From the NCBI GenBank assembly GCA_021785355.1, contig JAJYFR010000001.1, forward strand, positions 1,003 through 65,002: 64,000 nt of DNA, read 5' to 3'. Shown here one piece after another: positions 9,921 through 33,538 of the stretch. Made by a program: the position numbers and the translations under genes. Position 1 is the stretch's first letter. Each line of letters begins with the position of its first letter. The DNA is from a bacterium (GTDB lineage: Bacteria > Patescibacteriota > Dojkabacteria > JAKAPS01 > JAJZLI01). The notes under the pieces are model-generated. The model made no database searches, was not told the origin of the DNA, and was given only the letters and a program-made list of their open reading frames with translations.

Positions 9921-10151
9921 TTAATCTTCTTTAATTATTCTATAAACATCTTCTTCGTTATTAATCCCCATCTGCTTTCCAACTTTTCTACCTGCAGATA
10001 AAAGTTTCTTCCAACGTTTACGTTTATCTAAGTCCGCAATGGCAAGCCTTCTAAAATACTCACTTCTACTTCCTAAGTCTTGTTTAACTGCTTTATCAAT
10101 CTCTGTTAACAACTTTTTGTCAATTGCAATATTAACTGTTCGTGTGCTCAT
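9921..10151 (-). CDS. Ribbon-helix-helix (CopG-family) antitoxin
   Basis: 76 aa. TRTVNIAIDKKLLTEIDKAVK...RSEYFRRLAIADL is a typical RHH fold sequence. It lies 5 nt upstream of the PIN gene. Confidence 0.6.
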   Translation of the reverse strand: MSTRTVNIAIDKKLLTEIDKAVKQDLGSRSEYFRRLAIADLDKRKRWKKLLSAGRKVGKQMGINNEEDVYRIIKED

Positions 10152-10433: not shown

Positions 10434-11345
10434 TTATTTTTCTATAACATTTAATTTTAAGAGCTGCAATAGGTATAGCAATTTTATTGAAATTATTATT
10501 ATAAAGTTTATCAGGACATTATTTTGAGTGAAATAATGTTTCTTATAAAAAATATACATTGCATCTGAATATGCTTTTATCCATCTTCTTTTTGTTTCTT
10601 TGTCTGCAGAAGAAAGTTTACTGCTAGATTTTTTTAATCCTCCAGAAGCTCCTTTATAATGTAGGATTGAAGTTTTAGGTGTATACATTATTTTCCAGTT
10701 ATTTTCTTTTATCCTAAAACATAAATCTAGATCTTCTCCCATAGCCCAAAATGATTCGTCAAAAAAAGCTGTTTTCGTATGCTTTTTATTTCCTGAAAAT
10801 ACTTCTTTTCTAATAAACATAAAAGCTCCTGTGCAAGCATCTATCTCTATTTCTCTGTTAATACTACCTTCTATGTTATAACCTTTAAATTTATCTGAAA
10901 ATTTTGATAGATTTAAAAGTTTACCTATACTATTTGAGATTGTAGGAAAACTTCTTCTACATGCTTTATCTAATTCTCCTGAAGGAAGAAATAGGGGACA
11001 AGTAGAAACACCTACATCTTTGTGTATCTCCATAAAATTATACATTTCACTCAGTGTATTTTTATTAAGTTTTGTATCTGGGTTAAGAATTAATATATAT
11101 CTTCCTTTTGCTATTTTTAAAGCCTGATTGTTAGCTTTTGAAAAACCTACATTATCTTTATTTTTTATATATATATACTCTCTACTGTCCTTAAACAATT
11201 TATACGTATCATCTCTTCCATTATCAATTATAAATATCTCTTTTTTAAGATTATCCTCACTTTGTTTTATAGAAAAAAGACAATCTGCAAGTAAAGATTT
11301 TACATTATATGTTACTATTATTATGCTAATATCTATGTTTTTCAT
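10434..11345 (-). CDS. Glycosyltransferase family 2
   Basis: The ISIIIVTYN N-terminal strand and a DNGRDDT DxD-like motif indicate a GT-A fold. Confidence 0.8.
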   Translation of the reverse strand: MKNIDISIIIVTYNVKSLLADCLFSIKQSEDNLKKEIFIIDNGRDDTYKLFKDSREYIYIKNKDNVGFSKANNQALKIAKGRYILILNPDTKLNKNTLSEMYNFMEIHKDVGVSTCPLFLPSGELDKACRRSFPTISNSIGKLLNLSKFSDKFKGYNIEGSINREIEIDACTGAFMFIRKEVFSGNKKHTKTAFFDESFWAMGEDLDLCFRIKENNWKIMYTPKTSILHYKGASGGLKKSSSKLSSADKETKRRWIKAYSDAMYIFYKKHYFTQNNVLINFIIIISIKLLYLLQLLKLNVIEK

Positions 11346-11417
11346 AATATTTTCGCCTATATTATACTTTAATTCCTTTTATTTCTATAGTTTTTTTTAA
11401 TATCTTTAGGGTATAAT

Positions 11418-12188
11418 ATGTATTATATGAATAAAAATGACAGAGATCTTCTCTTAGAATTCGTAAAAACTGATTTTACCTTAAGATATAATAATTCTGT
11501 ATTAGGGTTTCTGTGGGTTGTTCTGAAACCTCTTTTAATGTTTACTGTAATGTATATAGTGTTTTCTCTTTTTTTAGGTACTAGTGTTAAATATTATGCA
11601 CTGTATCTTCTTTTAGGAATAATGCTTTATAATTTTTTTAATGAGGTTACTGTAAATGGAATGAATTCTCTCTTGCAGAAAAAAGATATAATGCTTAAAG
11701 TTAATTTTAAAAGATATATAGCAGTAATAGGTTCTTCTGTTATAGCATTAATAAATTTATTCTTTAATCTAATAGTATCTGTAGTTTTTTTTATATTTAA
11801 TAGAGTTCTTCCTTCTTTTGAGGGAATTTTATTTTTTCTCTTAGGGATAATAATTTTATATATCTTGGGAATAGCAATATCTTTTTTTATAAGTATTTTC
11901 TATGTAAAATTTAGAGATTTACAACATATATGGGAGATTGTTATGTTTGTTTTATTCTACCTTACCCCTATAGTCTATCCTATATCTTTAGTTCATGGTA
12001 AATTTGCATTAATAATAGATGCAAATCCTCTTACACATATTCTTAATTTTGCTAGACAATCTATAATCTACGGAAAGTATTTGTCTGTATATTCTACTAT
12101 GATAATATTTGTTTTATCTATAACACTTTTTATTTTAGGTTTCTATTTTTTTGAAAGAAGTATTAAAAAAATAGCTGAAGATTTTTAA
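11418..12188 (+). CDS. ABC-2 type polysaccharide export permease (Wzm/TagG-like)
   Basis: 256 aa with 6 predicted TM helices and the ABC-2 architecture. It lies immediately upstream of the cognate ATPase. Confidence 0.8.
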   Translation: MYYMNKNDRDLLLEFVKTDFTLRYNNSVLGFLWVVLKPLLMFTVMYIVFSLFLGTSVKYYALYLLLGIMLYNFFNEVTVNGMNSLLQKKDIMLKVNFKRYIAVIGSSVIALINLFFNLIVSVVFFIFNRVLPSFEGILFFLLGIIILYILGIAISFFISIFYVKFRDLQHIWEIVMFVLFYLTPIVYPISLVHGKFALIIDANPLTHILNFARQSIIYGKYLSVYSTMIIFVLSITLFILGFYFFERSIKKIAEDF

Positions 12189-12191
12189 TAT

Positions 12192-13358
12192 ATGGAAAAT
12201 GTAATAGAAGTAAAAAATATAACAAAAGAATTTAGATTGCCAATGGAAAAGAGATCTCAATTAAAAGATTACTTTGTCCATCCTTTCAAAAGAACAAAAT
12301 ACAGAGAGTTTAGAGCTCTTTCTAATATATCTTTTTCTGTTAAAAAGGGAGAATTTTTAGGAATAATAGGAAGAAATGGTTCTGGGAAAAGCACACTTTT
12401 AAAAATCATAGCAGGAATATATCTTCAAGATAAAGGAAAAATAAATGTAAAAGGAAAAATAGTTCCATTTCTAGAGCTAGGAGTTGGTTTTAATATGGAG
12501 CTTACTGCAAAAGACAATATATTCTTGAATGGAGTTATACTTGGTCTTTCTAGAGAAGAAGTTAAGAAGAAATATAAAGAAATTATAGAATTTTCAGAAC
12601 TTCAAGGTTTTGAAGAAACTCAACTTAAAAATTTTTCATCAGGAATGCAAGTCAGACTAGCTTTTTCAATAGCTATACAAGCTCATGGAGATATATATAT
12701 TTTAGATGAAGTTTTGGCAGTAGGGGATTTAGGGTTTCAACAAAAATGTTTTGATATGTTTAGAAAATTAAAATCTCAAGGGAAAACAATTATTTTTGTA
12801 TCTCACTCAATGGGTGCTATAGAAGAGTTTTGTGACAGAGTAATACTTTTGGATAAAGGAAATATAAGAAAAGAAGGAAATGTTTTGAATGTTGTAAAAA
12901 ATTATAGTGAAGTATTTTTTTCTAAAACAGAAAATACTTTTCTTGAAAAAGATGGTGAATTTTCATTAAAAATTCTAGGAAAAGATGGGAAAGATAAGAA
13001 TATTTTTGATTTTAATGAAGAATTAAGTATAAAAATCATATATAATTTAAAAAAAGAAATAATATCACCATTTTTTGAGATTATAATAACAAGAGAAGAT
13101 GGAATTATTATATCTGCTATAAATTCAAAATATTCAAATCTTTCTTTAGGTAGCATAAAAGGAAAGGGGGCTATATCTTTTAGCGTTAATAATTTAAATC
13201 TATATCCTTCTGAGTATAGTATATCTTTAGTTGTTTATTCTAAAGATTTAAATGAACAGATAGTTTTATTAGAGAAAATAAGAAATTTCAAAACCTTTCT
13301 TTCAAGAGACAATATAAAAGGGATTTTAGAAATAGAAGGAGAGTGGAGTTCTATTTAA
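12192..13358 (+). CDS. Polysaccharide export ABC transporter ATP-binding protein (Wzt/TagH-like) with a ~150-aa C-terminal beta-rich extension
   Basis: Walker A GRNGSGKST, the signature LSGGMQ-like FSSGMQ, and Walker B IYILDE are present. The C-terminal domain beyond aa ~240 is consistent with a Wzt carbohydrate-binding module. Confidence 0.8.
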   Translation: MENVIEVKNITKEFRLPMEKRSQLKDYFVHPFKRTKYREFRALSNISFSVKKGEFLGIIGRNGSGKSTLLKIIAGIYLQDKGKINVKGKIVPFLELGVGFNMELTAKDNIFLNGVILGLSREEVKKKYKEIIEFSELQGFEETQLKNFSSGMQVRLAFSIAIQAHGDIYILDEVLAVGDLGFQQKCFDMFRKLKSQGKTIIFVSHSMGAIEEFCDRVILLDKGNIRKEGNVLNVVKNYSEVFFSKTENTFLEKDGEFSLKILGKDGKDKNIFDFNEELSIKIIYNLKKEIISPFFEIIITREDGIIISAINSKYSNLSLGSIKGKGAISFSVNNLNLYPSEYSISLVVYSKDLNEQIVLLEKIRNFKTFLSRDNIKGILEIEGEWSSI

Positions 13359-14176
13359 ATTTTTCTTAATATCTTTATATATTCAGGAATAAAATCCTTA
13401 TTTTTAAAATAATAGATAGGCATCTTTAGAATATCGTATATTTTTGCAATCTTGATCTCTTTTTTCATATTATGTTTTTTTAGTAATTTGTATTTATTTC
13501 TTAGAGAATATTTTAAATTTCTCAAATTACTCTCGCTACCTCTTAAGTGTACACACTCTGCTGAACTTATTAATAAATTATCATAACCTTCTTTTCTTAA
13601 TCTTAATCCTAAATCAACATCTTCATAATAAGATCTGAAAGTTGTGTCAAAAAAACCTACATCATCTATTGCTGATCTACTATAAATTGCAGCTGCAGCG
13701 CAACATGCAAATACTTTTTTTATACCAAAATATTTTTTCTTGATATCATTTGCGCTATATCCAAAATTAAGATATATCCCTTCACTATCAATTTTTGTTT
13801 TCTTAGAATCTTTGTAATATATTCCTTGTGCAGAACCTATCGTAACATCTTTACTCATCACTTCTACTATTTTTTGTATATATGATGAATTTAGAAATGC
13901 ATCATGATTTAAAGTGAGTATATATTCACCTTTCGATATTAAAAATCCCTGCAAATTAGCCTTTGCAAATCCTACATTTTTTTTATTTTCTATTACTTTA
14001 ATGTTTTTTATACCCTTAATATATTTTAGAGTATGATCTTTTGAATTATTGTCAACTACAATAATCTCTATATCATTATAAGTCTGTTTTAAAACTCTAA
14101 GAATTGTCTCTTGTATAAATTTTTCACTATTATATGTAACTATTATCACACTTACCATAAATGCATTATATATCAT
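13355..14176 (-). CDS. Glycosyltransferase family 2
   Basis: The VSVIIVTYN strand and a DNNSKDHT DxD-like motif. Its stop overlaps the Wzt stop by 4 nt (convergent genes). Confidence 0.8.
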   Translation of the reverse strand: MIYNAFMVSVIIVTYNSEKFIQETILRVLKQTYNDIEIIVVDNNSKDHTLKYIKGIKNIKVIENKKNVGFAKANLQGFLISKGEYILTLNHDAFLNSSYIQKIVEVMSKDVTIGSAQGIYYKDSKKTKIDSEGIYLNFGYSANDIKKKYFGIKKVFACCAAAAIYSRSAIDDVGFFDTTFRSYYEDVDLGLRLRKEGYDNLLISSAECVHLRGSESNLRNLKYSLRNKYKLLKKHNMKKEIKIAKIYDILKMPIYYFKNKDFIPEYIKILRKI

Positions 14177-20341: not shown

Positions 20342-22147
20342 ATGAAATGTTATGGTAAAATCCTATATTGTATGAGCATTATAAGTCTATCTAAAAAAAG
20401 TATTTTCTATATTAAAAATTTTGGTGTAAAAGAATTTTTGAGAAAAACTAAAGGTTATCTTTCATCAAGGATTATTAGAAAGAAAGATAATATTGCATAT
20501 TCAAAATTAGTAAAGTTAGAAAAATTTAATGAGACAAAAATAAAAAAAGAGATTGAAAAATTCAAATATAAACCACTTCTTTCTATAATAATACCTACAT
20601 ACAATACCCCCATCCCTCTTATTAAAGAGACAATAGAGAGTGTTAAAAAACAGTTTTATAAAAATTTTGAAGTTATAGTATATGATGATGCATCAAAAGA
20701 TGAGAACTTTAAAAAATATCTAGAAAGAATTAATAAAGGTAATATTAAAGTTTTCTTATCAAAAAAAAATAATGGGATATCTAAATCTTCTAATATGGCA
20801 GTAAAAAAATCTAAAGGAGAGTATTTAGTATTTCTTGACCATGATGATACTCTCTCTCAAGATGCTTTATTTGAAACTGTAAAATTTCTAAATAATAAAA
20901 GAGTAGATTACATATATTCAGATGAAGATAAACTCTCTTATAAAGGAGAAAGAGAAGATCCTTTTTTTAAACCTGATTTTTCATATGATCTCCTACTTTC
21001 ATGTATGTATATAACACATATAAGGGTAATCAGAAAATCTACATTTTTAAAATTACATGGCTTAAATTCAAAATTTGATGGTGCTCAAGATTGGGATTTT
21101 GCACTAAGGTTATATGAGAATAAAGCTTTGTTTGGACATATTCCTAAAATTCTATACCACTGGAGAAAAACTGCTAATTCTACAGCTGATGATGCATCTG
21201 GTGCAAAATCATATGCATATAAAAGACAACAGACTCTAATAGAAGAACATTTAAAAAGAATGAGTGTAAATGCAATAGTAAAACAAGGGTTTTTTAAAGG
21301 TTCATATAAAGTTGAAAGAAATATAGAAGGCGAACCTAAAGTTGAGATAATAATTCCATTTAAAGATAAAGTAGAGTATCTAAAAGACTGTGTTGGAAGT
21401 ATAGAGAAGATAAGTACTTATAAAAATTATGAAATTTGTCTTATAAATAATGACAGTAGAGAAGAGGAAACTTTTGAATATCTTAAAAATTTAAAAAAAG
21501 ATCATAGAATTACTATTCTTGATTATAAAAAAGAATTTAACTATTCTTTGATTAATAATTTTGCTGTTAAAAAAACTGAAAGTGATTATCTCTTGTTTTT
21601 AAATAATGATACTAAAATAATAACACCACAATGGATAGAGGAGATGCTTTCACACGCTCAAAGAAAAGAAGTAGGGGCAGTAGGAGGTTTGCTTTTATAT
21701 AAAGATGGAACAATTCAACATGCAGGAATTGTTATTGGTTTAGGAGGAGTTGCTGCACATTCTCACAGAGGATTTCCTGGTGCATCAAATGGGCATGGAG
21801 GTCTAGTAAGTTGTGTGCGAGATGTTTCTGCTGTAACAGCAGCATGTATGATGGTTAAAAGATCGAAATTTCTTCAAATTAAAGGTTTTGATGAAAATTT
21901 AAAAATAGCATATAACGATGTGGATCTTTGCTTAAGACTTGAAAGATTAGGTTTAAGAAATATATATACTCCATATATGAAGATATATCATTATGAAACA
22001 AAAACAAGAAAAAAAACTAAGGGAGAAAATATTAAAGATACAGGATTTTTTTTGAAAAGATGGAAATATATTTTAAAAAAAGGAGATCCATTCTATAATC
22101 CTAATCTCACTCACTCAAAAGAAGATTACTCCTTTAGAGCAGTGTAA
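20342..22147 (+). CDS. Two-domain glycosyltransferase (tandem GT2 domains)
   Basis: 601 aa. Domain 1 has LSIIIPTYN...YDDAS...DHDD, and domain 2 has VEIIIPFKD...NNDSRE. This resembles polymerising two-GT2 enzymes. The exact start is uncertain. Confidence 0.75.
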   Translation: MKCYGKILYCMSIISLSKKSIFYIKNFGVKEFLRKTKGYLSSRIIRKKDNIAYSKLVKLEKFNETKIKKEIEKFKYKPLLSIIIPTYNTPIPLIKETIESVKKQFYKNFEVIVYDDASKDENFKKYLERINKGNIKVFLSKKNNGISKSSNMAVKKSKGEYLVFLDHDDTLSQDALFETVKFLNNKRVDYIYSDEDKLSYKGEREDPFFKPDFSYDLLLSCMYITHIRVIRKSTFLKLHGLNSKFDGAQDWDFALRLYENKALFGHIPKILYHWRKTANSTADDASGAKSYAYKRQQTLIEEHLKRMSVNAIVKQGFFKGSYKVERNIEGEPKVEIIIPFKDKVEYLKDCVGSIEKISTYKNYEICLINNDSREEETFEYLKNLKKDHRITILDYKKEFNYSLINNFAVKKTESDYLLFLNNDTKIITPQWIEEMLSHAQRKEVGAVGGLLLYKDGTIQHAGIVIGLGGVAAHSHRGFPGASNGHGGLVSCVRDVSAVTAACMMVKRSKFLQIKGFDENLKIAYNDVDLCLRLERLGLRNIYTPYMKIYHYETKTRKKTKGENIKDTGFFLKRWKYILKKGDPFYNPNLTHSKEDYSFRAV

Positions 22148-22414: not shown

Positions 22415-25387
22415 ATGAATGATAATATAAAAAATGATATTGTTGATAATATATCTAAGTTTTTAGAAAAAGAAAAAAGTTATGTTTTGAAAAAAGTTAA
22501 TTATGAAATTAATAATCCAGGAAGAACGGTTGCTAATGCTTGGAATAAGATAAACCCAAAAACAGAGATTGAAATAGAAGATTTCTATAAGAAAACTGAT
22601 TCATACATTTATGATCTGTTAATTGAAAGCTCTAGAACTTCACGTATTGAATGGAGAGATAGCATTCTTTTCTATTTATCTTTATATGAGGACAAAAAGA
22701 CATTATTGGATTATGGAGGAGGTGTTGGTACAGACGGCCTATACTTTCAAGAATGTGGATATGATACATCCTATTATGATTTAAAAGGGTTAACTTTTGA
22801 TTTTGCAAAGTATAGATTTAACAAATATAATTCAGAAATAAAGGTTCTTGAGAATAAGAATAATATTAAATCTTATGATTCTATTGTCTGCTTAGAAGTA
22901 ATGGAGCATTTAGTAGATCCAATAGACACTTTAAAATTTTTATATACTAAACTTAATAAAAATGGATTGTTATTTTTAACTCAATCGTTTGATTTAGTAT
23001 CAAAAGATTATCCTTCGCATCTAAAAGAAAATCAAAAATACAGTAAAGATTTTGAAAAAATTTGCGTAGATTTAGGCTTTACAATATTAGATAAAATTTC
23101 AAATGATAGGATTTATGTTTTAGGTAAATTTGGTGGAGTAGATATTATAGTTCCCACATATAATTCTTATGAATATGTATATGATTGTATAAATAGTGTA
23201 ATTGAAAATACCAATGATACTCCATATAGATTTGTATTTGTAAATGATTGTAGTACGGATATAAGAATTCATAAGTTTTTTAATAAAATAAAAAGAGATA
23301 AGGATATCTATATAAAAAATAAAAAAAACTTAGGTTTTGTTAAAACAACAAATATAGGTCTTTCTCAATCTAAAGAAAATGATGTGGTACTTCTAAATAC
23401 AGATACTGTAGTTACATATAAATGGTTATCTTCTATAAGAAAGGTAATTTATAAAAAACAAAAATATGCTACGGCTAATCCCCTTACAAATAATGCGTCT
23501 ATCTATTCTATCCTCGAGTTATCACACCTAGCAGATAACGTTAATATACAAAAAATAGGTAAAATAATTAATAAATCATCTATGCACTTATATCCAGAGA
23601 TACCAGTATCTGTTGGATTCTGTATGTATATAAAAAGAGAGGTACTCAATAAGATAGGTATACTAGATGAAATATTTGAAAGAGGCTATGGAGAGGAAGG
23701 AGATTTTTGCATGAGATGTAGAGTTAATGGTTACTCTCACATATTAGTAGATGATGCATTTGTATTTCATAAAGGAAGTGTATCCATGCTACTTAAAGGA
23801 GAGATTAAAAAGGGAGAATCTACAATAGAAGCTCATGAGAAAATTTTACATAAAAGATATCCTGATTATGGAGCTATAATAAATAATTTTATTGAGACAA
23901 GAGTTTTCAACAATATAAAGAATAGTATAATTCAATCTGTAACATCTTCTTTAAGCTTAAACAAGAGAAGGATATTGTATGTTATTCACTTTCCTATTAA
24001 CGGAGATAATATTGGAGGAACTGAATTTCATTTAAAAGATTTAGTAAATAATATTGATAATAAAATTGATTGCTATGTTTTGTATATTAAAGATAACAAG
24101 ATTATTGTTGAAGAGTATGTTGATAATATAAAGACTTCTTACCTTTTTGATATTCCATATCCTTTGCAATCTTATTTATTTAGGAATGATTTTTTATATT
24201 ACAAATATATAGAAATCTTAAAAATTCTCAATATAAACCTAATACATGTACAACATCTACTAAATAATAGTTTTGATATTATTTTTTCCGCTAAATCTTT
24301 AGGTATTCCTATTATTATGACAATACATGATTATTATTTGATTTCTCCAGATTACAATCTATTGTATAGATATAAGGACGAAATTTACAATAAAGATATA
24401 GTTCCAGATAGTAAATATTTTGAAAAGAAACTTCTTATTAAAAATTTTAAACAAGAAGATTGGCAAAAAAATATTAGTAAAGTAATATCATTAGTAAATC
24501 TTTTTATATTTCCTAGTGAGAGTGCAAAATCAGAATTTAGTAATGTTTATAATATAAAAAACTCATTAGTAATAGAACATGGAGAAACTTTAGTGCCAGA
24601 TAAAAATTTTAATATAGGATCAATCAAGATGGCAGATAAAAAGAAATTCAGTATTTTGTTCTTAGGATACACAAATGCATCTCAAAAAGGAAATAATACT
24701 TTAAAAAAAGTTATTACATCTCTTTCAAATAGAGGTGTAGAGATACATTTATTAGGAACAGAAGAACTCTACTGGAAGAATATTCATAAACAAAATTTGA
24801 TTTTACATGGATCTTACAAAAGAAATAATGTTGTGGAAATTTTGAAAAAAATTAATCCAGATATAATTGGATTAGTATCCATTTGGCCAGAAACTTTTTC
24901 ATATACCTTTAGTGAAGCATTGTTAGCAAAAATCCCGGTAGTCACTTTTCCTTTGGGTGCGGTACCAGAGAGGATAAAAAAATATGGGGGAGGTGGATTT
25001 ATACTAAATAGTCTGTCTTCTGATGAATTTATAAAGACTATCATCTCGCTAAAGAAAAATAATGTTGAATATAAAAAACTAAAAAATGAGACTAAAGAAA
25101 TACATGTTAAAACTTTAAATGAAAATATTAAAGAGTATTTAGATTTATATGAAAAATATGTTTATATCAAAGATTTGAATCATACTAATGAAGATATAAA
25201 GAGAATATCTTCTGAGCATTATTCTACTTATATAGAGGAAAAAAGATTAATACAAAACGCTATAAATGAGAAAAATTTATTATTATTTCACTTAAATAAT
25301 ATACAAAATAGTATTATATGGAAATATATTATTAGTAATTATCTGAGATTAAAAAATGTTTTATATGAAATTAAAAAAATACGATAA
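22415..25387 (+). CDS. Trifunctional fusion: class I SAM-dependent methyltransferase, then GT2, then GT4 glycosyltransferase
   Basis: 990 aa. The N-terminal LDYGGGVGTDG is a methyltransferase motif I. The middle VDIIVPTYN...VNDCSTD is a GT2 domain. The C-terminal PETFSYTFSEALLAKIPVV is a GT4 EX7E-like motif. Confidence 0.75.
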   Translation: MNDNIKNDIVDNISKFLEKEKSYVLKKVNYEINNPGRTVANAWNKINPKTEIEIEDFYKKTDSYIYDLLIESSRTSRIEWRDSILFYLSLYEDKKTLLDYGGGVGTDGLYFQECGYDTSYYDLKGLTFDFAKYRFNKYNSEIKVLENKNNIKSYDSIVCLEVMEHLVDPIDTLKFLYTKLNKNGLLFLTQSFDLVSKDYPSHLKENQKYSKDFEKICVDLGFTILDKISNDRIYVLGKFGGVDIIVPTYNSYEYVYDCINSVIENTNDTPYRFVFVNDCSTDIRIHKFFNKIKRDKDIYIKNKKNLGFVKTTNIGLSQSKENDVVLLNTDTVVTYKWLSSIRKVIYKKQKYATANPLTNNASIYSILELSHLADNVNIQKIGKIINKSSMHLYPEIPVSVGFCMYIKREVLNKIGILDEIFERGYGEEGDFCMRCRVNGYSHILVDDAFVFHKGSVSMLLKGEIKKGESTIEAHEKILHKRYPDYGAIINNFIETRVFNNIKNSIIQSVTSSLSLNKRRILYVIHFPINGDNIGGTEFHLKDLVNNIDNKIDCYVLYIKDNKIIVEEYVDNIKTSYLFDIPYPLQSYLFRNDFLYYKYIEILKILNINLIHVQHLLNNSFDIIFSAKSLGIPIIMTIHDYYLISPDYNLLYRYKDEIYNKDIVPDSKYFEKKLLIKNFKQEDWQKNISKVISLVNLFIFPSESAKSEFSNVYNIKNSLVIEHGETLVPDKNFNIGSIKMADKKKFSILFLGYTNASQKGNNTLKKVITSLSNRGVEIHLLGTEELYWKNIHKQNLILHGSYKRNNVVEILKKINPDIIGLVSIWPETFSYTFSEALLAKIPVVTFPLGAVPERIKKYGGGGFILNSLSSDEFIKTIISLKKNNVEYKKLKNETKEIHVKTLNENIKEYLDLYEKYVYIKDLNHTNEDIKRISSEHYSTYIEEKRLIQNAINEKNLLLFHLNNIQNSIIWKYIISNYLRLKNVLYEIKKIR

Positions 25388-26771
25388 ATCAATAATTTTT
25401 ATAATTTTCACTATATTTATATCTTTGTTAATTTGGTGGATATCTTTACCTGTATTTCAATCTTTTGATGAACCCGCTCATTTTGCTCAGATACAACATA
25501 TAGCAGAAACTAACCAATATGATATGAATAATACAATAAGTAATGAGCAATTTTTATTAGAAAATTTTTTAAAATTTAATATATTTAATGCTAATGTGAA
25601 TTCTCAATATCATTTTATAAGTAAAAACTATAATATAAGAAAATATATATTTGATAAAAAATCAAATACTAAGATTAATAGAAATACATTTACACATGTA
25701 GCTATAGTTGAGAATTACCCCCCACTTTATTATTATATATCAGCAGTTGTATATAAAATTACTAAACAAAAGAGTATATTTTTTAGTATAGAAGCTATTC
25801 GTTTTATATCTATATTCTTTTTTCTAATTACATTGATATTCTCCTATAAAATTGCTTTATTAATATTTCCAGAAGATATCTGGATACAATATTGTACAGT
25901 AATTTTTATAGGGTTTTTGCCTATGTTATCGCAATTGTCAGTATCTATTAATCCAGATAATTTATTAATAACATTGTTTACGCTGTTTACTTATTATTCA
26001 CTTAAACTATTAAGATCTAGCGGTTTTTCTCAAAAAACAAATATAGTATTAGTAATAATATTATTATTAGGTTTCATGACAAAACAAAGTGCTTATATAC
26101 TATGTATTCCTTATTTGTTTTTAATAGGGTATAAATTAAAAAATAAAAAACTGTCATTAAGATATAAACAAATATTAATTTTAGGTTTTTTTTTCTTAAT
26201 ATTAATATTTTTCTTTTTAAAAGGATTTACATTAATATTTGATTATATAAGTGGTACATTTAATAGTTGGAAATATTTTTCTCCACTAGACTATATTTAC
26301 AAATATTCTACAAATTATTTTTTTAATGGATATGTATTTCAATCTTTTTGGGGAGCTTTTGGTTGGGGATTTTTTAAATTTCCTCAACAATATTATGATA
26401 TTTTATACTTATTTTTAAGTACATCAATTATTGGGATAATAATATATTACTATAATTTAACTTATATAACTAAAAAAAATAGGAAACTTTTGTATACAAT
26501 TAATTATTTAATAATATTATCATTAACATATTCTTTATTTCTTGTATATTTAGATTTTATATCTATAAAAAATACTGGGACATTTTTTATACAAGGGCAT
26601 TATTTTTTTGAAATAATAACTGCGAATACAATTCTGTTTCTTTTCGGAATAGGAGAATTTTTTAAAAGGTTTAAATTAAAAAATACAATCTATTTCATAA
26701 TAATAATAGGAATAGTTTTGTTAAATACAACAGGATTATTTCAAATATTAATAAATAAATTCTATTTATAG
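25356..26771 (+). CDS. Polytopic membrane glycosyltransferase of the GT-C fold (ArnT/PMT-like) or related glycan polymerase
   Basis: 471 aa with more than 10 TM helices. An SFDEPAH acidic motif in the first predicted external loop is typical of GT-C enzymes. The start may be the Met at 25365 instead; the given start overlaps the upstream gene by 32 nt. Confidence 0.55.
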   Translation: MFYMKLKKYDKSIIFIIFTIFISLLIWWISLPVFQSFDEPAHFAQIQHIAETNQYDMNNTISNEQFLLENFLKFNIFNANVNSQYHFISKNYNIRKYIFDKKSNTKINRNTFTHVAIVENYPPLYYYISAVVYKITKQKSIFFSIEAIRFISIFFFLITLIFSYKIALLIFPEDIWIQYCTVIFIGFLPMLSQLSVSINPDNLLITLFTLFTYYSLKLLRSSGFSQKTNIVLVIILLLGFMTKQSAYILCIPYLFLIGYKLKNKKLSLRYKQILILGFFFLILIFFFLKGFTLIFDYISGTFNSWKYFSPLDYIYKYSTNYFFNGYVFQSFWGAFGWGFFKFPQQYYDILYLFLSTSIIGIIIYYYNLTYITKKNRKLLYTINYLIILSLTYSLFLVYLDFISIKNTGTFFIQGHYFFEIITANTILFLFGIGEFFKRFKLKNTIYFIIIIGIVLLNTTGLFQILINKFYL

Positions 26772-26778
26772 GTGGATT

Positions 26779-27932: not shown

Positions 27933-27962
27933 ATTATTTAATTAAATCATTTTATAATATAT

Positions 27963-28659: not shown

Positions 28660-29841
28660 ATGAAAAAAAATAAAATATTATTTGTATTACAACGTTTTTA
28701 CCCCTCAGTTGGCGGAACTCAGAATTATAGTTTTCTGTATGCAAAAGAACTTACAAAATTAGGATATGACGTTGATATAGTTACTACAGATTCATTAGAT
28801 AATTTAGATGTTAGGGGTTTTTCTTCAGGAAGAAGATTTACTTTTAAGAGTAAAAATAATAAATTATTAAAAAAAGAAACAATAGGAGGTATTAATATCT
28901 TTAGATTCTCTCCCATATTTCAATTTTTTACAGTAATGATAAATCCTTCCATGTTTTTTTTCTTACTTTTAAATATACAAAAATATTATATTGTCCATAC
29001 ATATTGTTATATGTATGCTGAACCTGATATGGTATCCGTCATTTCACTTATATTTAGAAATATAAAGATTGTTCATTCTCCCCAAGACATAGATGTTCCT
29101 TTTGAAGGATTTTTAAAAAAATTAAAAGAAACATTTTATGATAAATCTTTTGGCAGGTTAACTCTAAAAAGATCTTCAAAAATAATTGTATTAACTAATG
29201 AATTAAAAAAAAGAGTAAAAAAAATGAATATAGAATCAGGAAAGATAGAGATACTACCCATTGGTATAGATTTTAATAATTATAAAACAACTAATAATAA
29301 TAAGTCTATAGATATTTTATTTGTAGGTAGATTAACCGAATATAAGGGAGCCCAATATATAATAAAAACATTAGAGATGTTAAAAAATGATGGAATATTC
29401 CCAAATACTTTAATTATTGGAAAAGATTATGGATATAAAAATATTCTTGAAAAAAATATTGAAGATTATGAATTACAGAATATATCAATAAATACAAATG
29501 TTAGAGATAAAGATTTAATAAATTTTTACAGATCAAGTAAATTCTTTATATTTCCTTCATCAGGTGAAGGTTTTGGAGGTGTAGTTTTGGAAGCAATTAG
29601 CGGTGGTTGTTACCCTATTTTATTAAAAGAAAAAGGACTTAAAGATTTACTTGGTAATATAGGTGGATATTCTATAGATAAAGATAAAGATATATCTAAA
29701 CAAATATATATGTTTTTAAAAGAAAATCACACTAAAGATTTTTCTAATGAAGTTACAGTGTTACAAAATATAGTTAAAAAAGATTATAATTGGACAAATA
29801 TTGCAAAAAAATTAGTTCAAATTTATGAAAAAATACAATAA
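28660..29841 (+). CDS. Glycosyltransferase family 4 (GT-B, group 1)
   Basis: 393 aa. The N-terminal VGGTQNY and C-terminal FPSSGEGFGGVVLEAISGGCYPI (EX7E) motifs. Confidence 0.8.
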   Translation: MKKNKILFVLQRFYPSVGGTQNYSFLYAKELTKLGYDVDIVTTDSLDNLDVRGFSSGRRFTFKSKNNKLLKKETIGGINIFRFSPIFQFFTVMINPSMFFFLLLNIQKYYIVHTYCYMYAEPDMVSVISLIFRNIKIVHSPQDIDVPFEGFLKKLKETFYDKSFGRLTLKRSSKIIVLTNELKKRVKKMNIESGKIEILPIGIDFNNYKTTNNNKSIDILFVGRLTEYKGAQYIIKTLEMLKNDGIFPNTLIIGKDYGYKNILEKNIEDYELQNISINTNVRDKDLINFYRSSKFFIFPSSGEGFGGVVLEAISGGCYPILLKEKGLKDLLGNIGGYSIDKDKDISKQIYMFLKENHTKDFSNEVTVLQNIVKKDYNWTNIAKKLVQIYEKIQ

Positions 29842-30985
29842 TAAAAGAGATAAGGTTGGCAGTTTAAAAGTATGTATTATACATAATATTGTTTCTCCTT
29901 ATAGATTACCTTTATTTGAAGAATTAAATAAAAATGTAAACTTGACTGTGTATTTTTGTAAATCTATCACAAAAGATAGAGTATGGAAGTTTGATCTAGG
30001 TGAGTATAATTTTAAATATGATATTCTTAGAGGATTTTCTTTCGGCCCAATTATTATAAACACAAATGCTCTGTGGAAATTAATAAAAACTAATTTTGAT
30101 GTTGTTATTATTAATAGTGATCCAGATGTAGCTCCGATAGTTTTTATGGCGTTTATATTATCAAAATTACGTAGAAAAAAAATTATTTTATGGTCTGAGG
30201 CTATTAATAAAGAGGTACATTTTTTTCCTAGCTTAGTATATGGTAATACTAATGCTTTTAATAAAATAATACTGTACTTACTGACTTTTTTTATTACCAA
30301 ATATAGGAAAATATATCTACGTGGGGCTGATCATTTTTTAGCATTTAGTAATAAAGCTAGGGAATTTTTGATAGAGAATAAAGTAAGTGTAGAAAAGATT
30401 ACTCGTACATATGAAATTATACCACTAGATCAGTTACCTGAACATAGTAAAAAATTTGTAAGGAATGGTAAAACATTTATATATGTAGGGTATCTCATTC
30501 CTCGTAAGAACATTCAATTACTAATAAGGGCATTTAAAAAAATTGATGATAATAAAGCTAAATTATATATAGTTGGAACTGGACCATCTGAAATTCAACT
30601 AAAGAAATTATCTAAGAATGATAATAGAATTATATTTACTGGAAATAAAGAAGGAGTAGATAAATCAAATTTATATGCCACTTCTGATATATTAGTTTTA
30701 CCTTCACTGGATGACTCTTGGGGACTAGTTGTTAATGAGGCAATACATTATGGTCTTGGAGTAATCACTTCTGATACAATAGGTGCAACAGAATTAATTG
30801 ATACAAACACAGGCTTGATTTTTAAATCTAATAATCTAGAACAATTATATTCTGCAATGACTGAACTAATTAATGACAAAAAAAAACTTAAATCTATGCA
30901 AGAACACAATTTAGGGAATAGTGGAGTATCTGATATAAAAAAAGCTTCCAAAGGCTTTTTGAGAGCAATTTGTAAGGTATTATGA
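29825..30985 (+). CDS. Glycosyltransferase family 4
   Basis: 386 aa. LPSLDDSWGLVVNEAIHYGLGVI is an EX7E-like motif. The start overlaps the upstream gene by 17 nt, suggesting an operon. Confidence 0.8.
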   Translation: MKKYNNKRDKVGSLKVCIIHNIVSPYRLPLFEELNKNVNLTVYFCKSITKDRVWKFDLGEYNFKYDILRGFSFGPIIINTNALWKLIKTNFDVVIINSDPDVAPIVFMAFILSKLRRKKIILWSEAINKEVHFFPSLVYGNTNAFNKIILYLLTFFITKYRKIYLRGADHFLAFSNKAREFLIENKVSVEKITRTYEIIPLDQLPEHSKKFVRNGKTFIYVGYLIPRKNIQLLIRAFKKIDDNKAKLYIVGTGPSEIQLKKLSKNDNRIIFTGNKEGVDKSNLYATSDILVLPSLDDSWGLVVNEAIHYGLGVITSDTIGATELIDTNTGLIFKSNNLEQLYSAMTELINDKKKLKSMQEHNLGNSGVSDIKKASKGFLRAICKVL

Positions 30986-31009
30986 TAATTAGTAATTGAC
31001 AAGAAATAT

Positions 31010-32209
31010 ATGACAAAAAATAAGATATTTATAGTTTCTACTGAATTTCCTGCACTGACAGGTGGAACTCCTGCAAGAAATTTTAATCTTATAAACCAAA
31101 TAGCAAAAAATAAGTTTTCAGTATCTCTTTTTAGTGTTTTTGATAAAAAATCAGAACCTTTTTTAAATTCTACAAAAAAAAAATTAAATATTCCTATTTA
31201 TACAAAAAAAAAGATATCTTTTAATTTATTTAAGAAAATATATATATCTATTATAAAAAGAGTAGTCCCTTATATGGAAGAATTTAATGATTTAGATTTC
31301 AAAACTTTCATTTTAAAAAAAATAGAAGAAGAAAAACCTTCTATTTTGCAGTTAGAACAATTAAATGCATATTTTATGATGAAAGATCATATTCCATACC
31401 TTAAAGATAAAGGAATCAAAATTATCCTCGATGCACATAATATAGAAGAAATAGCATTAAAAGGGGCTATCTCTTCTTTTGGTTTTATTAAAAGAAATGT
31501 AGCAATGCGGATCCTCCCAAATTTGAAAAAAATAGAAAAAGAAGCTTTTGAATATGTGGATTTAATTTTTGCATGTTCTGATTATGATAAAAATATTATT
31601 GCAAGAATAGTGAGTTCTTCAAAAGTAGTGGTTATCCCTAATGGCGCAGATATTTCTTATTTTACTCTTGAGAAAAAACCAAAAAAACAGTCTTTGATTT
31701 TTATGGGAGGGTGTAATTATCCTCCTAATGAAGAAGCTCTAAAATTTTATTTTTCTCGAATTCATGAAGAAATAAAAAAAATATACAATATAAAAATATA
31801 TGTTTTATGCGGAAAACCTCCTAACTGGTTATCTATATTAGCAAAAACTGACAAGAGTATTATATTGCCAGGATTTGTGCCTGATGTAAGACAATATATA
31901 CATAAAGCATCAATTGGTATTTGTCCTATTATTTCAGGTTCAGGTACTCGTCTTAAAATACTAGAGTATATGAGTTGTGGAAAACCAGTTATTTCTACAA
32001 GCAAAGGAGCTGAAGGAATACAAGTTGAAGATAAAAAGAATATAATTATTGCAGATACTGTTAGCACTTTTATTGAAGCAGTAAATTTACTTTTTACTAA
32101 TGCTAATATATTTGATAGATATAGTAAAGAAGCCAGAAAGCTTATAGAACTAGAGTATGATTGGGATATAGTTGGTAAAAAATTACAAAATATTTATAAA
32201 CATATATGA
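31010..32209 (+). CDS. Glycosyltransferase family 4
   Basis: 399 aa. TGGTPARNF at the N-terminus and a C-terminal GT-B Rossmann domain containing PIISGSGTRLKILEYMSCGKPVIST. Confidence 0.75.
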   Translation: MTKNKIFIVSTEFPALTGGTPARNFNLINQIAKNKFSVSLFSVFDKKSEPFLNSTKKKLNIPIYTKKKISFNLFKKIYISIIKRVVPYMEEFNDLDFKTFILKKIEEEKPSILQLEQLNAYFMMKDHIPYLKDKGIKIILDAHNIEEIALKGAISSFGFIKRNVAMRILPNLKKIEKEAFEYVDLIFACSDYDKNIIARIVSSSKVVVIPNGADISYFTLEKKPKKQSLIFMGGCNYPPNEEALKFYFSRIHEEIKKIYNIKIYVLCGKPPNWLSILAKTDKSIILPGFVPDVRQYIHKASIGICPIISGSGTRLKILEYMSCGKPVISTSKGAEGIQVEDKKNIIIADTVSTFIEAVNLLFTNANIFDRYSKEARKLIELEYDWDIVGKKLQNIYKHI

Positions 32210-32215
32210 TATAAT

Positions 32216-33385: not shown

Positions 33386-33538
33386 TATATAGTTTAGAAC
33401 AATTTTTAATTTGAAATAAAATCTATTATATATTATAAAAGAACTGTAAATTGGGACTAAAATTGATTTATCAAATATTCCTGTTTGAACAACAATATAT
33501 TAATTATTTATAAAAAATATTAAGTAATAAAGAATTCT

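What the first reader, a model, noticed from the sequence alone, without database searches (positions are those of the whole stretch)
10434..14176. ABC-transporter-dependent glycan export module whose Wzt carries a C-terminal putative carbohydrate-binding extension
The Wzm-like ABC-2 permease (11418..12188) and the Wzt-like ATPase (12192..13358) are flanked by GT2 genes. The ATPase is 388 aa, leaving about 150 aa beyond the nucleotide-binding domain. In the E. coli O8/O9a and Klebsiella O-antigen systems, this Wzt C-terminal domain binds a chain-terminating modification (methyl or phosphomethyl) added by the kinase/methyltransferase WbdD, coupling chain termination to export. This window also encodes stand-alone SAM methyltransferases (40766..41323 and the N-domain of 22415..25387) and a lipopolysaccharide-kinase-fold protein (43119..44012). 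All components of a terminator-dependent ABC pathway are therefore present but dispersed.
Basis: partly seen in the sequence, partly recalled or inferred. Interest (0 to 1): 0.65.

Follow-up and report, generated by a model that had tools for sequence, protein, structure and literature searches.

The report
Glycan exporter with cap-reading domain
This is an ordinary Wzm/Wzt ABC exporter for a surface sugar polymer, in an uncultured low-GC bacterium, whose ATPase carries a real sugar-binding "checkpoint" domain; what mark that domain reads, and which enzyme writes it, is still open.

Summary
Window 10434-14176 encodes GT2(-), a Wzm ABC-2 permease, a 388-aa Wzt ATPase and GT2(-). Wzt residues ~246-388 are a true Wzt_C carbohydrate-binding domain (CBD): PF14524 scores 53.9 bits against a cutoff of 30.4, a CBD profile hits the A. 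aeolicus CBD at E=2e-19, and an AF2 model (pLDDT 92) matches all three solved Wzt CBDs at TM 0.70-0.74.

The four-gene core is syntenic in nine relatives.
- The stand-alone methyltransferase and the Kdo/WaaP-like kinase lie 27-30 kb away.
- Neither resembles WbdD in sequence or architecture.
- Neither is found near Wzt in any relative.
- The kinase's conserved partner is a different GT2.

A better cap-writer candidate is the N-terminal methyltransferase of the 990-aa MT-GT2-GT4 protein, which has a WsaE-like architecture. It is not syntenic with Wzt in relatives either, and in one relative (L176) unrelated GTs occupy its slot.

The residues that bind the methyl cap in A. aeolicus are not conserved here (W362 is Leu, H355 is deleted, Y233 is Ser). 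The cap is therefore unknown.

Wzt proteins with Wzt_C are abundant in public data, including Patescibacteria. This is a new member of a known kind, of modest interest.

The parts
10434..11345 (-). GT2 glycosyltransferase (GT2a, 303 aa, C-terminal hydrophobic segment), divergent from wzm; part of the conserved four-gene core
   Evidence: PF00535 at 79 bits. Homologs of 55-67% identity lie next to Wzm/Wzt in L004, L006 and L011-L015 and in L175 and L176.
11418..12188 (+). Wzm, ABC-2 permease of the exporter (256 aa)
   Evidence: PF01061 at 47.8 bits. Best PDB match is A. aeolicus Wzm 6M96/7K2T, E=1.5e-13, residues 10-255. 69-75% identical in relatives.
12192..12926 (+). Wzt nucleotide-binding domain plus hinge (residues 1-245)
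   Evidence: PF00005 at 79.4 bits. Full-length alignment to A. aeolicus Wzt 8DKU/7K2T, E=5e-66. 71-78% identical in close relatives.
12927..13358 (+). Wzt C-terminal carbohydrate-binding domain (residues 246-388), jelly-roll fold, ending in the family-conserved ...EIEGEW motif
   Evidence: PF14524 at 53.9 bits, cutoff 30.4. CBD profile against 8DKY/6O14 gives E=2e-19. AF2 model has pLDDT 91.9. Foldseek top 17 hits are the A. aeolicus, R. terrigena O12 and E. coli O9a Wzt CBDs, TM 0.66-0.74. Only 27-45% identical in close relatives.
13355..14176 (-). GT2 glycosyltransferase (GT2b, 273 aa), convergent with wzt; part of the conserved core
   Evidence: PF00535 at 118.8 bits. Homologs of 55-67% identity next to Wzt in L004, L006, L012, L013 and L015; a GT2 in the same position in L176.
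20342..22147 (+). Double-GT2 protein (601 aa), first gene of the + strand glycan-synthesis block; conserved near the Wzt module in some relatives
   Evidence: Two PF00535 domains, 158.9 bits. 62% identical in L004, 57% in L176, partial copy in L015.
22415..25387 (+). MT-GT2-GT4 fusion (990 aa): helical bundle 1-89, SAM methyltransferase 96-238 (motif I D99-x-G-x-G-x-G105), GT2 242-460, helical linker 472-514, GT-B 518-915, C-terminal helices 926-989. Candidate polymerase with a built-in cap methyltransferase (inferred)
   Evidence: Pfam domains. AF2 model has pLDDT 90.3. Sequence. Relatives of 49-55% identity keep all three domains. WsaE and K. pneumoniae O7 ORF6 are architectural precedents.
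25356..26771 (+). DUF2142 polytopic membrane protein (471 aa), overlapping the end of the 990-aa gene by 32 nt; probable extracytoplasmic partner (inferred)
   Evidence: PF09913 at 54.4 bits. Homologs of the 990-aa gene are likewise followed by large membrane proteins (DUF2079 in L008 and L092; GT87/PMT_2 further downstream in L093).
28660..34423 (+). Four GT4 genes and one GT2 gene on the same strand; further glycan-assembly enzymes of the block (assignment to the same polymer is inferred)
   Evidence: Pfam GT4 and GT2 matches.

Best explanation
The region encodes a Wzm/Wzt ABC exporter for a polyprenol-linked glycan, in an uncultured, ~26% GC, probably Patescibacteria-like bacterium.

Shown:
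- Wzm and Wzt are full-length homologs of the A. aeolicus O-antigen transporter.
- Wzt carries a true Wzt_C jelly-roll carbohydrate-binding domain (CBD).
- GT2-Wzm-Wzt-GT2 is a conserved four-gene core in the clade.
- The CBD diverges much faster than the ATPase domain.

Inferred from characterised systems:
- The polymer is built in the cytoplasm on a lipid carrier.
- Chain growth ends when the non-reducing end is marked.
- The CBD binds that mark and loads the chain into the Wzm channel for ATP-driven export.
- The organism probably has no outer membrane (my own knowledge of CPR biology). The product would then be a wall-, lipid- or protein-linked surface glycan, not LPS.

Inferred, with weaker support: the most likely writer of the mark in this genome is the N-terminal SAM methyltransferase of the 990-aa MT-GT2-GT4 protein, which would make the system WsaE-like. 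The dispersed stand-alone methyltransferase and kinase are not the likely writers.

My confidence splits as about 0.9 for a CBD-bearing Wzm/Wzt glycan exporter and about 0.35-0.4 for a methyl cap written by the 990-aa protein.
For: Exporter and CBD:
- Pfam ABC2_membrane, ABC_tran and Wzt_C all score above their cutoffs.
- Wzt aligns to A. aeolicus Wzt over residues 7-350, E=5e-66.
- Wzm matches A. aeolicus Wzm.
- A CBD profile hits 8DKY/6O14 at E=2e-19.
- The AF2 CBD model has pLDDT 91.9. All 17 best Foldseek hits are solved Wzt CBDs, TM 0.66-0.74; the next-best folds score about 0.5.

Core conservation:
- GT2a, Wzm, Wzt and GT2b are syntenic in L004, L006/L007, L012, L013, L015 and L176. L011, L014 and L175 keep at least GT2a-Wzm-Wzt, on short or cut contigs.
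- The ATPase domain is 71-78% identical and the CBD 27-45% identical in close relatives, as expected for a glycan-specific reader.

Methyltransferase candidate:
- The MT-GT2-GT4 architecture is confirmed.
- WsaE has an N-terminal cap methyltransferase plus two GT domains and works with Wzm/Wzt (PMC2943079).
- K. pneumoniae O7 ORF6 is a second precedent, and all terminated systems carry a CBM on Wzt (PMC11231755).
- In L010 a 53%-identical MT-GT2-GT4 sits with rmlBCDA, WsaF- and RgpF-like GTs, and a Wzm/Wzt whose 397-aa ATPase tail matches the CBD family (hhalign 89%, E=2e-6).
- Among 28 polymerase loci that have a Wzt in range, all 8 with a fused methyltransferase have a Wzt with a C-terminal extension of at least 117 aa. 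Among those without the methyltransferase, 13 of 20 do.
Against: - The MT-GT2-GT4 gene is 9 kb from Wzt, separated by secreted-enzyme genes. It is absent within 10 kb of Wzt in all nine relatives.
- In L176 the syntenic slot after the double-GT2 gene holds an unrelated GT2 and GT4 with no methyltransferase, yet that Wzt still has Wzt_C.
- Of six other loci encoding a close MT-GT2-GT4 homolog (L008, L009, L010, L092, L093, L095), only L010 shows a Wzt within the DNA held.
- The co-variation trend is not significant (Fisher one-sided p=0.065; 0.087 without the window).
- The A. aeolicus methyl-cap pocket is not conserved. W362 is L359 here, although that position is aromatic in 77 of 103 wider family members. 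H355 is deleted, Y233 is S239, and V380 is K376.
- No coiled-coil ruler separates the methyltransferase from the GT modules.
- No initiating phosphoglycosyltransferase or ligase was seen in the window.
Confidence: 0.6

Rival explanations
1. The CBD reads a cap that is not a methyl group. The cap could be a unique terminal sugar or another substituent, added by one of the two GT2 enzymes that always travel with Wzm/Wzt. This would resemble the Kdo caps of K. pneumoniae O12 and O4. On this reading the 990-aa MT-GT2-GT4 serves a different polymer or a non-terminal methylation.
For: - GT2a and GT2b are the only glycan genes strictly co-conserved with Wzm/Wzt across relatives.
- The methyl-lid Trp and the other experimentally critical A. 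aeolicus residues are replaced in the window and its close clade.
- L176 keeps Wzt_C without the methyltransferase fusion at the syntenic site.
- Glycosyl caps read by Wzt CBMs are established (PMC11231755; 5HNO among the fold hits).
Against: - Nothing identifies either GT2 as a terminator. They score only as generic GT2s.
- Known glycosyl terminators (GT99, GT137) are not GT2 (PMC11231755; the GT99 assignment is my own knowledge).
- The polymerase-locus survey trends towards a methyltransferase/extended-Wzt association.
Confidence: 0.25
2. First reader's model. The stand-alone methyltransferase (40766-41323) and the Kdo/WaaP-fold kinase (43119-44012) act together as a dispersed WbdD-like terminator. 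They add a phosphate or methyl-phosphate cap that the Wzt CBD reads.
For: - The kinase keeps its catalytic motifs (VAVK, HGDxxxxN, IDWE).
- It scores on PF06293.
- It lies among glycosyltransferase genes: a GT4 at 41313 and an AglJ-like GT2 at 44002.
- Methyltransferase-kinase terminator pairs differ widely in sequence between systems (PMC11231755).
Against: - The two genes are 27-30 kb from Wzt and are not fused. The kinase family is stand-alone, 300-370 aa, so it carries no coiled-coil ruler.
- No homolog of either lies within 10 kb of Wzt in nine relatives.
- The kinase is syntenic with an AglJ-like GT2 plus S51, TraG-like, relaxase and SDR genes in L091. A 39%-identical relative sits among adk, map and ftsK in L174.
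- The word-indexed search of 5.8 billion clusters found only 3 close clusters for the kinase, against 11 for Wzt at 55-66% identity.
- The 185-aa methyltransferase is a generic UbiE/ArsM-like class I enzyme.
- No WbdD appears among the PDB sequence hits (top 60).
Confidence: 0.08
3. The CBD does not gate export on a terminal cap. It might bind internal repeat units or the lipid-linked primer, or it might be a structural remnant, so that export is terminator-independent.
For: - None of the tested A. aeolicus cap-contact residues is conserved.
- No terminator could be tied to the transporter by synteny.
Against: - The domain is retained at full length, models with high confidence, and keeps family-wide conserved positions (Y342, F366, G377, C-terminal Trp) across the family.
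- In every tested system the CBD is required and cap-specific (PMC9445017; PMC11231755).
- CBDs of different serotypes normally share little sequence. My evidence is the 14-20% identity to the solved CBDs.
Confidence: 0.07

Closest known systems
Aquifex aeolicus WzmWzt O-antigen ABC transporter (PDB 7K2T, 8DKU, 6O14, 8DKY; PMC9445017)
   Same: It is the best solved match for both subunits. Wzt gives E=5e-66 through the ATPase domain and into the CBD; Wzm gives E=1.5e-13. Domain order is the same, and the CBD jelly-roll matches at TM 0.74.
   Different: - The CBD is only 18-20% identical.
- The 3-O-methyl pocket residues differ: W362 is L359, H361 is V358, H350 is Y349 and A348 is V347.
- The trap loop is shorter, with H355 deleted.
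- Hinge Y233 is S239, and V380 is K376.
- The host is probably a bacterium without LPS, so the exported polymer is not an O antigen (inference).
Geobacillus stearothermophilus NRS 2004/3a S-layer glycan pathway (wzm, wzt, wsaE; PMC2943079)
   Same: It is an ABC-transporter-dependent glycan pathway outside LPS biology. A single protein carries an N-terminal cap methyltransferase followed by two glycosyltransferase modules, and Wzt is predicted to bind the methylated end. A related locus (L010) also has rml genes and a WsaF-like GT.
   Different: - In G. stearothermophilus wzm, wzt and wsaE overlap in one operon. Here the MT-GT2-GT4 gene is 9 kb away and is not syntenic with Wzt in relatives.
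- The GT modules here are GT2 plus GT4.
- No WsaP-type initiating enzyme or WsaB-type oligosaccharyltransferase was seen in the window.
- Sequence homology to WsaE was not tested.
E. coli O9a / K. pneumoniae O3 WbdD-WbdA-Wzm-Wzt, and K. pneumoniae O7 ORF6 (PMC11231755)
   Same: The logic is the same: a CBD on Wzt reads a chain-terminating modification. The E. coli O9a CBD (2R5O) is a fold match at TM 0.73. O7 ORF6 also fuses a terminator to two GT modules.
   Different: - No bifunctional kinase-methyltransferase protein is present.
- No coiled-coil ruler lies between the terminator and polymerase modules.
- The kinase-fold gene is stand-alone, of Kdo/WaaP type, and unlinked to the transporter.
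Klebsiella/Raoultella O12 Wzt CBD, which reads a beta-Kdo cap (PDB 5HNO/5HNP)
   Same: The jelly-roll fold is the same, at TM 0.70-0.73. It shows that Wzt CBDs can read glycosyl caps as well as methyl caps.
   Different: Identity is 16-17%. The profile match is weak (E=0.069). No Kdo-transferase-like terminator was identified here.

Membership tests
Wzm/Wzt polysaccharide ABC exporter (ABC-2 type) | ABC-2 family permease homologous to Wzm | tested here: met
   PF01061 at 47.8 bits, cutoff 26.9. A. aeolicus Wzm at E=1.5e-13, residues 10-255 of 256; also the mycobacterial Wzm and TarG.
Wzm/Wzt polysaccharide ABC exporter (ABC-2 type) | Wzt/TagH-type nucleotide-binding domain encoded next to the permease | tested here: met
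   PF00005 at 79.4 bits. Best PDB hits are Wzt, TarH/TagH and RfbE. The gene starts 3 nt after wzm.
Wzm/Wzt polysaccharide ABC exporter (ABC-2 type) | Transports a polyprenol-linked glycan | not testable with these tools
   Inferred only, from flanking GT2 genes and the glycan-synthesis block at 20342-34423.
Wzt_C carbohydrate-binding domain (PF14524) | Sequence match to the family model above the gathering score | tested here: met
   53.9 bits against 30.4, residues 258-368. Profile against 8DKY/6O14 at E=2e-19.
Wzt_C carbohydrate-binding domain (PF14524) | Jelly-roll beta-sandwich fold like 2R5O, 5HNO and 6O14 | tested here: met
   AF2 pLDDT 91.9, all-beta. Foldseek top 17 hits are exactly these CBDs, TM 0.66-0.74, probability 1.00.
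Wzt_C carbohydrate-binding domain (PF14524) | Dimer with exchanged C-terminal beta-strands | not tested
   Only a monomer was modelled. A C-terminal strand (model residues 139-142) and the conserved ...G-x-W end are present.
Wzt_C carbohydrate-binding domain (PF14524) | Cap-contact residues of the A. aeolicus methyl-sugar pocket (L300, T346, A348, H350, H355, W362, V380, hinge Y233) | tested here: not met
   The window has I298, S345, V347, Y349, a deletion, L359, K376 and S239. W362L abolished LPS binding in A. aeolicus. This argues against the same ligand, not against family membership.
Terminator-dependent (capped) ABC pathway | CBD/CBM fused to the C-terminus of Wzt | tested here: met
Terminator-dependent (capped) ABC pathway | A chain-terminating enzyme genetically linked to the transporter | tested here: inconclusive
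   A methyltransferase domain on the 990-aa GT fusion lies 9 kb away. It is not within 10 kb of Wzt in nine relatives and is replaced in L176. It is linked in L010. The survey trend gives p=0.065.
Terminator-dependent (capped) ABC pathway | Coiled-coil molecular ruler on the terminator protein | tested here: not met
   In the AF2 model the methyltransferase (96-238) abuts GT2 (242-460). The only long helices are C-terminal (926-964 and 967-989, pLDDT 62-78), and their role is unknown. WsaE-type systems may also lack a ruler (PMC2943079 reports chain-length-independent methylation in vitro).
Terminator-dependent (capped) ABC pathway | Terminal modification present on the glycan and required for export | not testable with these tools
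   Needs glycan chemistry and genetics.
WbdD-type bifunctional kinase/methyltransferase terminator | Kinase and methyltransferase domains in one coiled-coil protein | tested here: not met
   They are separate genes (40766-41323 and 43119-44012) with a GT4 and a hypothetical gene between them. The kinase family is stand-alone, 300-370 aa.
WbdD-type bifunctional kinase/methyltransferase terminator | Sequence similarity to WbdD | tested here: not met
   The methyltransferase domain of the 990-aa protein gives 21 PDB hits at E<=1, none of them WbdD. The kinase's best hits are CK2/ROCK catalytic loops at E~0.01, with none of the 60 listed being WbdD. NCBIfam best hit is Bud32 at 32.5 bits against a cutoff of 125.
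WbdD-type bifunctional kinase/methyltransferase terminator | Co-occurrence with the CBD-bearing transporter | tested here: not met
   Absent within 10 kb of Wzt in nine relatives. Kinase contexts L091 and L174 lack Wzm/Wzt. Genome-wide co-occurrence was not testable.
WsaE-like methyltransferase-glycosyltransferase fusion | N-terminal SAM methyltransferase with motif I, followed by two GT modules in one polypeptide | tested here: met
   Methyltransf_23 at residues 79-191, DYGGGVG at 99-105, GT2 at 244-414, GT4 at 533-895. Confident three-module model.
WsaE-like methyltransferase-glycosyltransferase fusion | Sequence homology to WsaE, and methylation of the terminal sugar | not tested

The most novel reading that the evidence does not exclude
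This small clade of uncultured, Patescibacteria-like bacteria may use a CBD-gated Wzm/Wzt exporter whose binding pocket has been rebuilt. It lacks the aromatic lid found in about 75% of the wider family, and it has a shortened trap loop. It could therefore read a so far undescribed kind of chain-end mark on a non-LPS surface glycan. The glycan-synthesis genes and the CBD may diversify together, as in serotype switching, which could matter for attachment to host cells or for phage evasion.
Probability: 0.2. Interest if true: 0.5.

Novelty: new member of a known kind. Interest (0 to 1): 0.3.

Why it matters
It shows that the cap-then-export quality-control logic, worked out for Gram-negative O antigens and one Gram-positive S-layer glycan, is also encoded in an uncultured, low-GC, probably Patescibacteria-like lineage whose surface chemistry I believe to be largely unstudied. 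The CBD is a ready handle: expressed alone, it could be used to find out what the cell's glycan terminus looks like. This is an extension of a well-understood system, not a new principle. Thousands of Wzt proteins with PF14524 already sit in public data, including annotated Patescibacteria entries.

Tried and rejected
1. A WbdD-like reading of the kinase and methyltransferase was rejected on sequence, architecture and context.
2. The CBD sequence alone against the PDB by phmmer found nothing meaningful. A family profile was needed.
3. A Foldseek search with the 990-aa model returned only generic GT4 hits and said nothing about the methyltransferase.
4. The species-representative genome scan gave only five close relatives. 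The other 75 loci were distant ATPase-domain-only matches and were not used.
5. The co-variation survey of 80 polymerase loci gave only a non-significant trend. My methyltransferase HMM detects only relatives of this methyltransferase, so other terminators in methyltransferase-less loci go unseen.
6. The promoter/terminator scan, Rfam and tRNA scans added nothing.
7. The PHROGs scan of the hypothetical neighbours gave nothing useful.
8. Cluster look-up gave no organism or protein names.
9. A literature search found no open-access paper combining Wzt with CPR/Patescibacteria terms among those listed.
10. I could not read relatives' contigs beyond 10 kb from Wzt, so genome-wide co-occurrence remains untested.

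Full report
**Observation**

The window is AT-rich (about 26% GC). At 10434-14176 it holds four tightly packed genes:
- a GT2 glycosyltransferase on the minus strand (10434-11345);
- a 256-aa ABC-2 permease (11418-12188);
- a 388-aa ABC ATPase starting 3 nt later (12192-13358);
- a convergent GT2 (13355-14176) whose end overlaps the ATPase stop.

Pfam confirms GT2, ABC2_membrane, ABC_tran and GT2. It also places Wzt_C (PF14524) at ATPase residues 258-368, scoring 53.9 bits against a gathering score of 30.4.

- 40766-41323 is a generic class I SAM methyltransferase.
- 22415-25387 starts with a methyltransferase domain.
- 43119-44012 is a kinase fold that just passes the Kdo/WaaP model (23.2 bits against 21.3).

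**What the transporter is**

Both subunits find the Aquifex aeolicus O-antigen transporter as their best solved relative.
- Wzt aligns from residue 7 to 350 of 388, at E=5e-66. That runs through the nucleotide-binding domain and into the carbohydrate-binding domain (CBD).
- Wzm aligns over its whole length at E=1.5e-13.

The CBD sequence alone was too diverged for a pairwise search. A profile of 30 homologous C-terminal domains (A1) hits the A. aeolicus CBD crystal structures 8DKY and 6O14 at E=2e-19. It also hits the Raoultella O12 CBD weakly.

An AlphaFold2 model of residues 246-388 is confident (pLDDT 91.9, pTM 0.86) and all-beta. Its 17 best Foldseek matches in the PDB are exactly the three characterised Wzt CBDs: A. 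aeolicus, R. terrigena O12 and E. coli O9a, at TM 0.66-0.74. The next folds (CARDB, RhoGDI) score about 0.5.

**Where it occurs**

The exact protein is on record, on contigs of up to 757 kb, without a name.
- Relatives at 55-66% identity all carry PF14524.
- More distant relatives (41-47%) include entries named Saccharimonadales, Berkelbacteria, Dojkabacteria and "Patescibacteria group".
- Species-representative genomes hold five close relatives, all labelled only "MAG: bacterium".

A Patescibacteria-like origin is therefore likely but not established. The domain combination is common.

**Conservation of the neighbourhood**

I compared 34 window proteins with seven close-relative loci, and I read the Pfam-annotated gene tables for four relatives. 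The conserved set is:
- a class I aminoacyl-tRNA synthetase;
- GT2a;
- Wzm (69-75% identity);
- Wzt;
- GT2b;
- a small hypothetical protein (15309);
- an S8 subtilase with RCC1 repeats;
- a GH18 enzyme with RCC1 repeats;
- a 452-aa secreted-looking protein (7922);
- in some loci, the double-GT2 gene (20342).

None of these loci has a homolog of the MT-GT2-GT4 protein, of DUF2142, of the 185-aa methyltransferase or of the kinase within 10 kb of Wzt.

Within Wzt, the nucleotide-binding domain is 71-78% identical to close relatives but the CBD only 27-45%. That is the pattern expected of a reader domain that tracks a variable glycan.

**The kinase and the stand-alone methyltransferase**

The kinase-like protein keeps its catalytic signatures (VAVK, HGDPQLKN, IDWE) and is probably active.
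- A word-indexed search of 5.8 billion clusters found only three relatives.
- An exhaustive HMMER search of 1.84 billion representatives found 224 at E<=1e-3 and 36 at E<=1e-10. Nearly all are stand-alone proteins of 300-370 aa.
- Some of these score marginally on PF06293 Kdo/WaaP. The "LPS-kinase fold" label is fair.

Its conserved context is not the transporter.
- In L091 it is followed by the same convergent AglJ-like GT2, then S51 peptidase, a DUF87/TraG-like ATPase, a relaxase-like protein and an SDR, exactly as in window 43119-53163.
- In L174 a 39%-identical relative sits among adk, map and ftsK.

There is no WbdD among the PDB sequence matches listed for the kinase or for the methyltransferase domain of the 990-aa protein. 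NCBIfam's best name for the kinase is Bud32, far below its cutoff. The 185-aa methyltransferase scores only on generic UbiE/ArsM-type models.

Genome-wide co-occurrence could not be tested.

**A better terminator candidate**

The 990-aa protein carries Methyltransf_23 (79-191), GT2 (244-414) and GT4 (533-895). It has an intact motif I, DYGGGVG, at residues 99-105. Its AlphaFold2 model (pLDDT 90.3) shows:
- a helical bundle (1-89);
- the methyltransferase (96-238);
- GT2 (242-460);
- a helical linker (472-514);
- a GT-B domain (518-915);
- two long C-terminal helices (926-989).

There is no coiled-coil spacer between the methyltransferase and the GT modules.

Its closest relatives (49-55% identity) keep all three modules. 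Many more distant relatives, about 750 aa and often from Firmicutes, lack the methyltransferase.

The architecture has two published precedents.
- WsaE of G. stearothermophilus has an N-terminal methyltransferase that writes the 2-O-methyl cap, plus two rhamnosyltransferase domains. It works with a Wzm/Wzt whose Wzt is predicted to bind the methylated end (PMC2943079).
- K. pneumoniae O7 ORF6 combines a methyltransferase-kinase, a coiled coil and two GT modules. The same paper states that every terminated system has a CBM on Wzt (PMC11231755).

One related locus gives direct support. L010 combines rmlBCDA, a 53%-identical MT-GT2-GT4, WsaF- and RgpF-like GTs and a Wzm/Wzt pair. Its 397-aa ATPase tail is missed by Pfam but matches the CBD profile (hhalign 89%, E=2e-6, ending ...LDYEWNN).

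**How strong that link is**

The link is not strong.
- Of six other loci encoding a close MT-GT2-GT4 homolog (L008, L009, L010, L092, L093, L095), only L010 has a Wzt within the DNA held. The recurring partners are instead a GT2 with a GtrA-like membrane domain and a large membrane protein (DUF2079; DUF2142 in the window).
- In L176, a relative with 55% Wzt identity, the whole core is present, together with rmlA-like, rmlC, rmlD and dehydratase-like genes. The slot after the double-GT2 gene holds a 431-aa GT2 and a 524-aa GT4. These are not detectably related to the window's fusion, and there is no methyltransferase domain. Yet that Wzt still has Wzt_C, at only 28% CBD identity.

I also surveyed 80 metagenome loci encoding relatives of the GT2-GT4 polymerase. 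Among the 28 de-duplicated loci with a Wzt-type ATPase in range:
- All 8 with a fused methyltransferase have a Wzt with a C-terminal extension of at least 117 aa. Six of these are recognised by the CBD HMM.
- Of 20 without the methyltransferase, 13 have an extension and 7 have a short Wzt.
- The direction is as expected, but Fisher's one-sided p is 0.065, or 0.087 without the window.

**The binding pocket**

The A. aeolicus CBD binds 3-O-methyl mannose or rhamnose. Its pocket is formed by L300, T346, A348 and W362, with further contacts from H350, the trap loop 352-356, V380 of the partner protomer and hinge Y233. The mutations W362L, V380G, H355A and Y233A impair binding or substrate-dependent ATPase modulation (PMC9445017).

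The pairwise and profile alignments agree on the register. The window has:

| A. aeolicus | Window |
|---|---|
| L300 | I298 |
| T346 | S345 |
| A348 | V347 |
| H350 | Y349 |
| H355 | deleted (trap loop one residue shorter) |
| W362 | L359 |
| V380 | K376 |
| Y233 | S239 |

In 103 more distant family members the W362 position is aromatic in 77 (F 45, W 22, Y 10). It usually sits in a Y-D-F/W motif. The window's close clade has S, I, L, M or F there.

The domain is therefore a true family member, but its ligand cannot be read off from A. aeolicus. A methyl cap is possible but not indicated by the pocket.

**Mechanism**

Shown:
- a Wzm/Wzt exporter with a true CBD;
- a conserved GT2-Wzm-Wzt-GT2 core;
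- a large GT block nearby.

Inferred from established Wzm/Wzt biology:
- the glycan is polymerised on a polyprenol carrier in the cytoplasm;
- its non-reducing end is marked;
- the CBD binds the mark and hands the chain to the Wzm channel;
- ATP hydrolysis drives export.

The rml genes next to the module in L176, and in the L010 cluster, hint at a rhamnose-containing polymer. No rml genes lie in the window itself.

My ranking for the writer of the mark:
- the methyltransferase of the 990-aa fusion: about 0.35-0.4;
- a non-methyl cap from a co-conserved GT2 or another enzyme: about 0.25;
- the dispersed kinase and methyltransferase pair: about 0.08;
- no cap dependence: about 0.07.

No initiating phosphoglycosyltransferase or ligase was found among the window ORFs scanned.

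**Novelty and verdict**

This is a well-known kind of system. The CBD-on-Wzt combination is abundant in public data, including annotated Patescibacteria proteins. No paper listed by the search tied Wzt to CPR terms, so it is little discussed there, but it is not a new principle.

I file it as a new member of a known kind, with interest of about 0.3. The most novel reading still open is a rebuilt pocket that reads a new type of chain-end mark in a serotype-like, co-diversifying glycan locus of an episymbiont-like lineage.

Noticed in passing
window 7922-9280 (-): A 452-aa protein (440 aa as called elsewhere) with a signal-peptide-like N-terminus and S/T/N/G-rich sequence, and no Pfam or PHROG hit. 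It is 65-83% identical in relatives, which is more conserved than Wzt. It lies next to the Wzt module in L004, L012, L013, L015 and L176, and also 2.5 kb upstream of the MT-GT2-GT4 homolog in L009. It may be a surface protein, or even a glycosylation target. By eye it resembles tandem lectin-like beta-sandwiches; this was not tested.
   Followed up: partly
window 15870-17945 (-) and 17945-20041 (-): An S8 subtilase and a GH18 chitinase/endo-N-acetylglucosaminidase-like enzyme, each fused to RCC1-type beta-propeller repeats. They are abutting genes that are conserved neighbours of the Wzt module in relatives. A third RCC1-repeat protein lies at 5408-6889.
   Followed up: partly
window 43119-53163, and L091: A block that keeps its order in a distant MAG (L091, GCA_027425055.1): kinase-like gene, convergent AglJ-like GT2, S51 peptidase, DUF87/TraG-like ATPase, Replic_Relax protein and SDR. 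The TraG and relaxase pair suggests a remnant or resident mobile element beside surface-glycan genes.
   Followed up: partly
window 9490-9915 (-) with a 76-aa ORF at about 9921-10151 (-); 53290-54107 (-); 53-454 (-): Several PIN-domain toxin genes with small upstream antitoxin-like ORFs. Relatives carry different toxin-antitoxin or AbiEii inserts at varying points inside the GT2-Wzm-Wzt-GT2 neighbourhood: MazE/PIN between GT2a and Wzm in L006, and AbiEii in L004.
   Followed up: no
window 25356-28500: The DUF2142 membrane-protein gene overlaps the end of the 990-aa gene by 32 nt. The stretch 26001-28000 has the lowest GC of the window (19%) and encodes proteins with no family match (26779-27594, 27963-28502).
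   Followed up: no
L176 4349-6877 and 16930-17934; L010 967-4246: dTDP-rhamnose pathway genes sit beside the Wzt module in one relative (L176) and beside the MT-GT2-GT4 homolog in another (L010). No rml genes occur anywhere in the 64-kb window.
   Followed up: partly
window 54947-58316: Two adjacent GT2 genes (-) diverge from, and slightly overlap, a MurJ-family flippase gene (56469-58316, +, 615 aa, longer than the 451-position Pfam MurJ model). GroES/GroEL and an AddA-like helicase-nuclease follow.
   Followed up: no
window 1-64000: No tRNA gene and no Rfam family at gathering score were found in 64 kb.
   Followed up: yes
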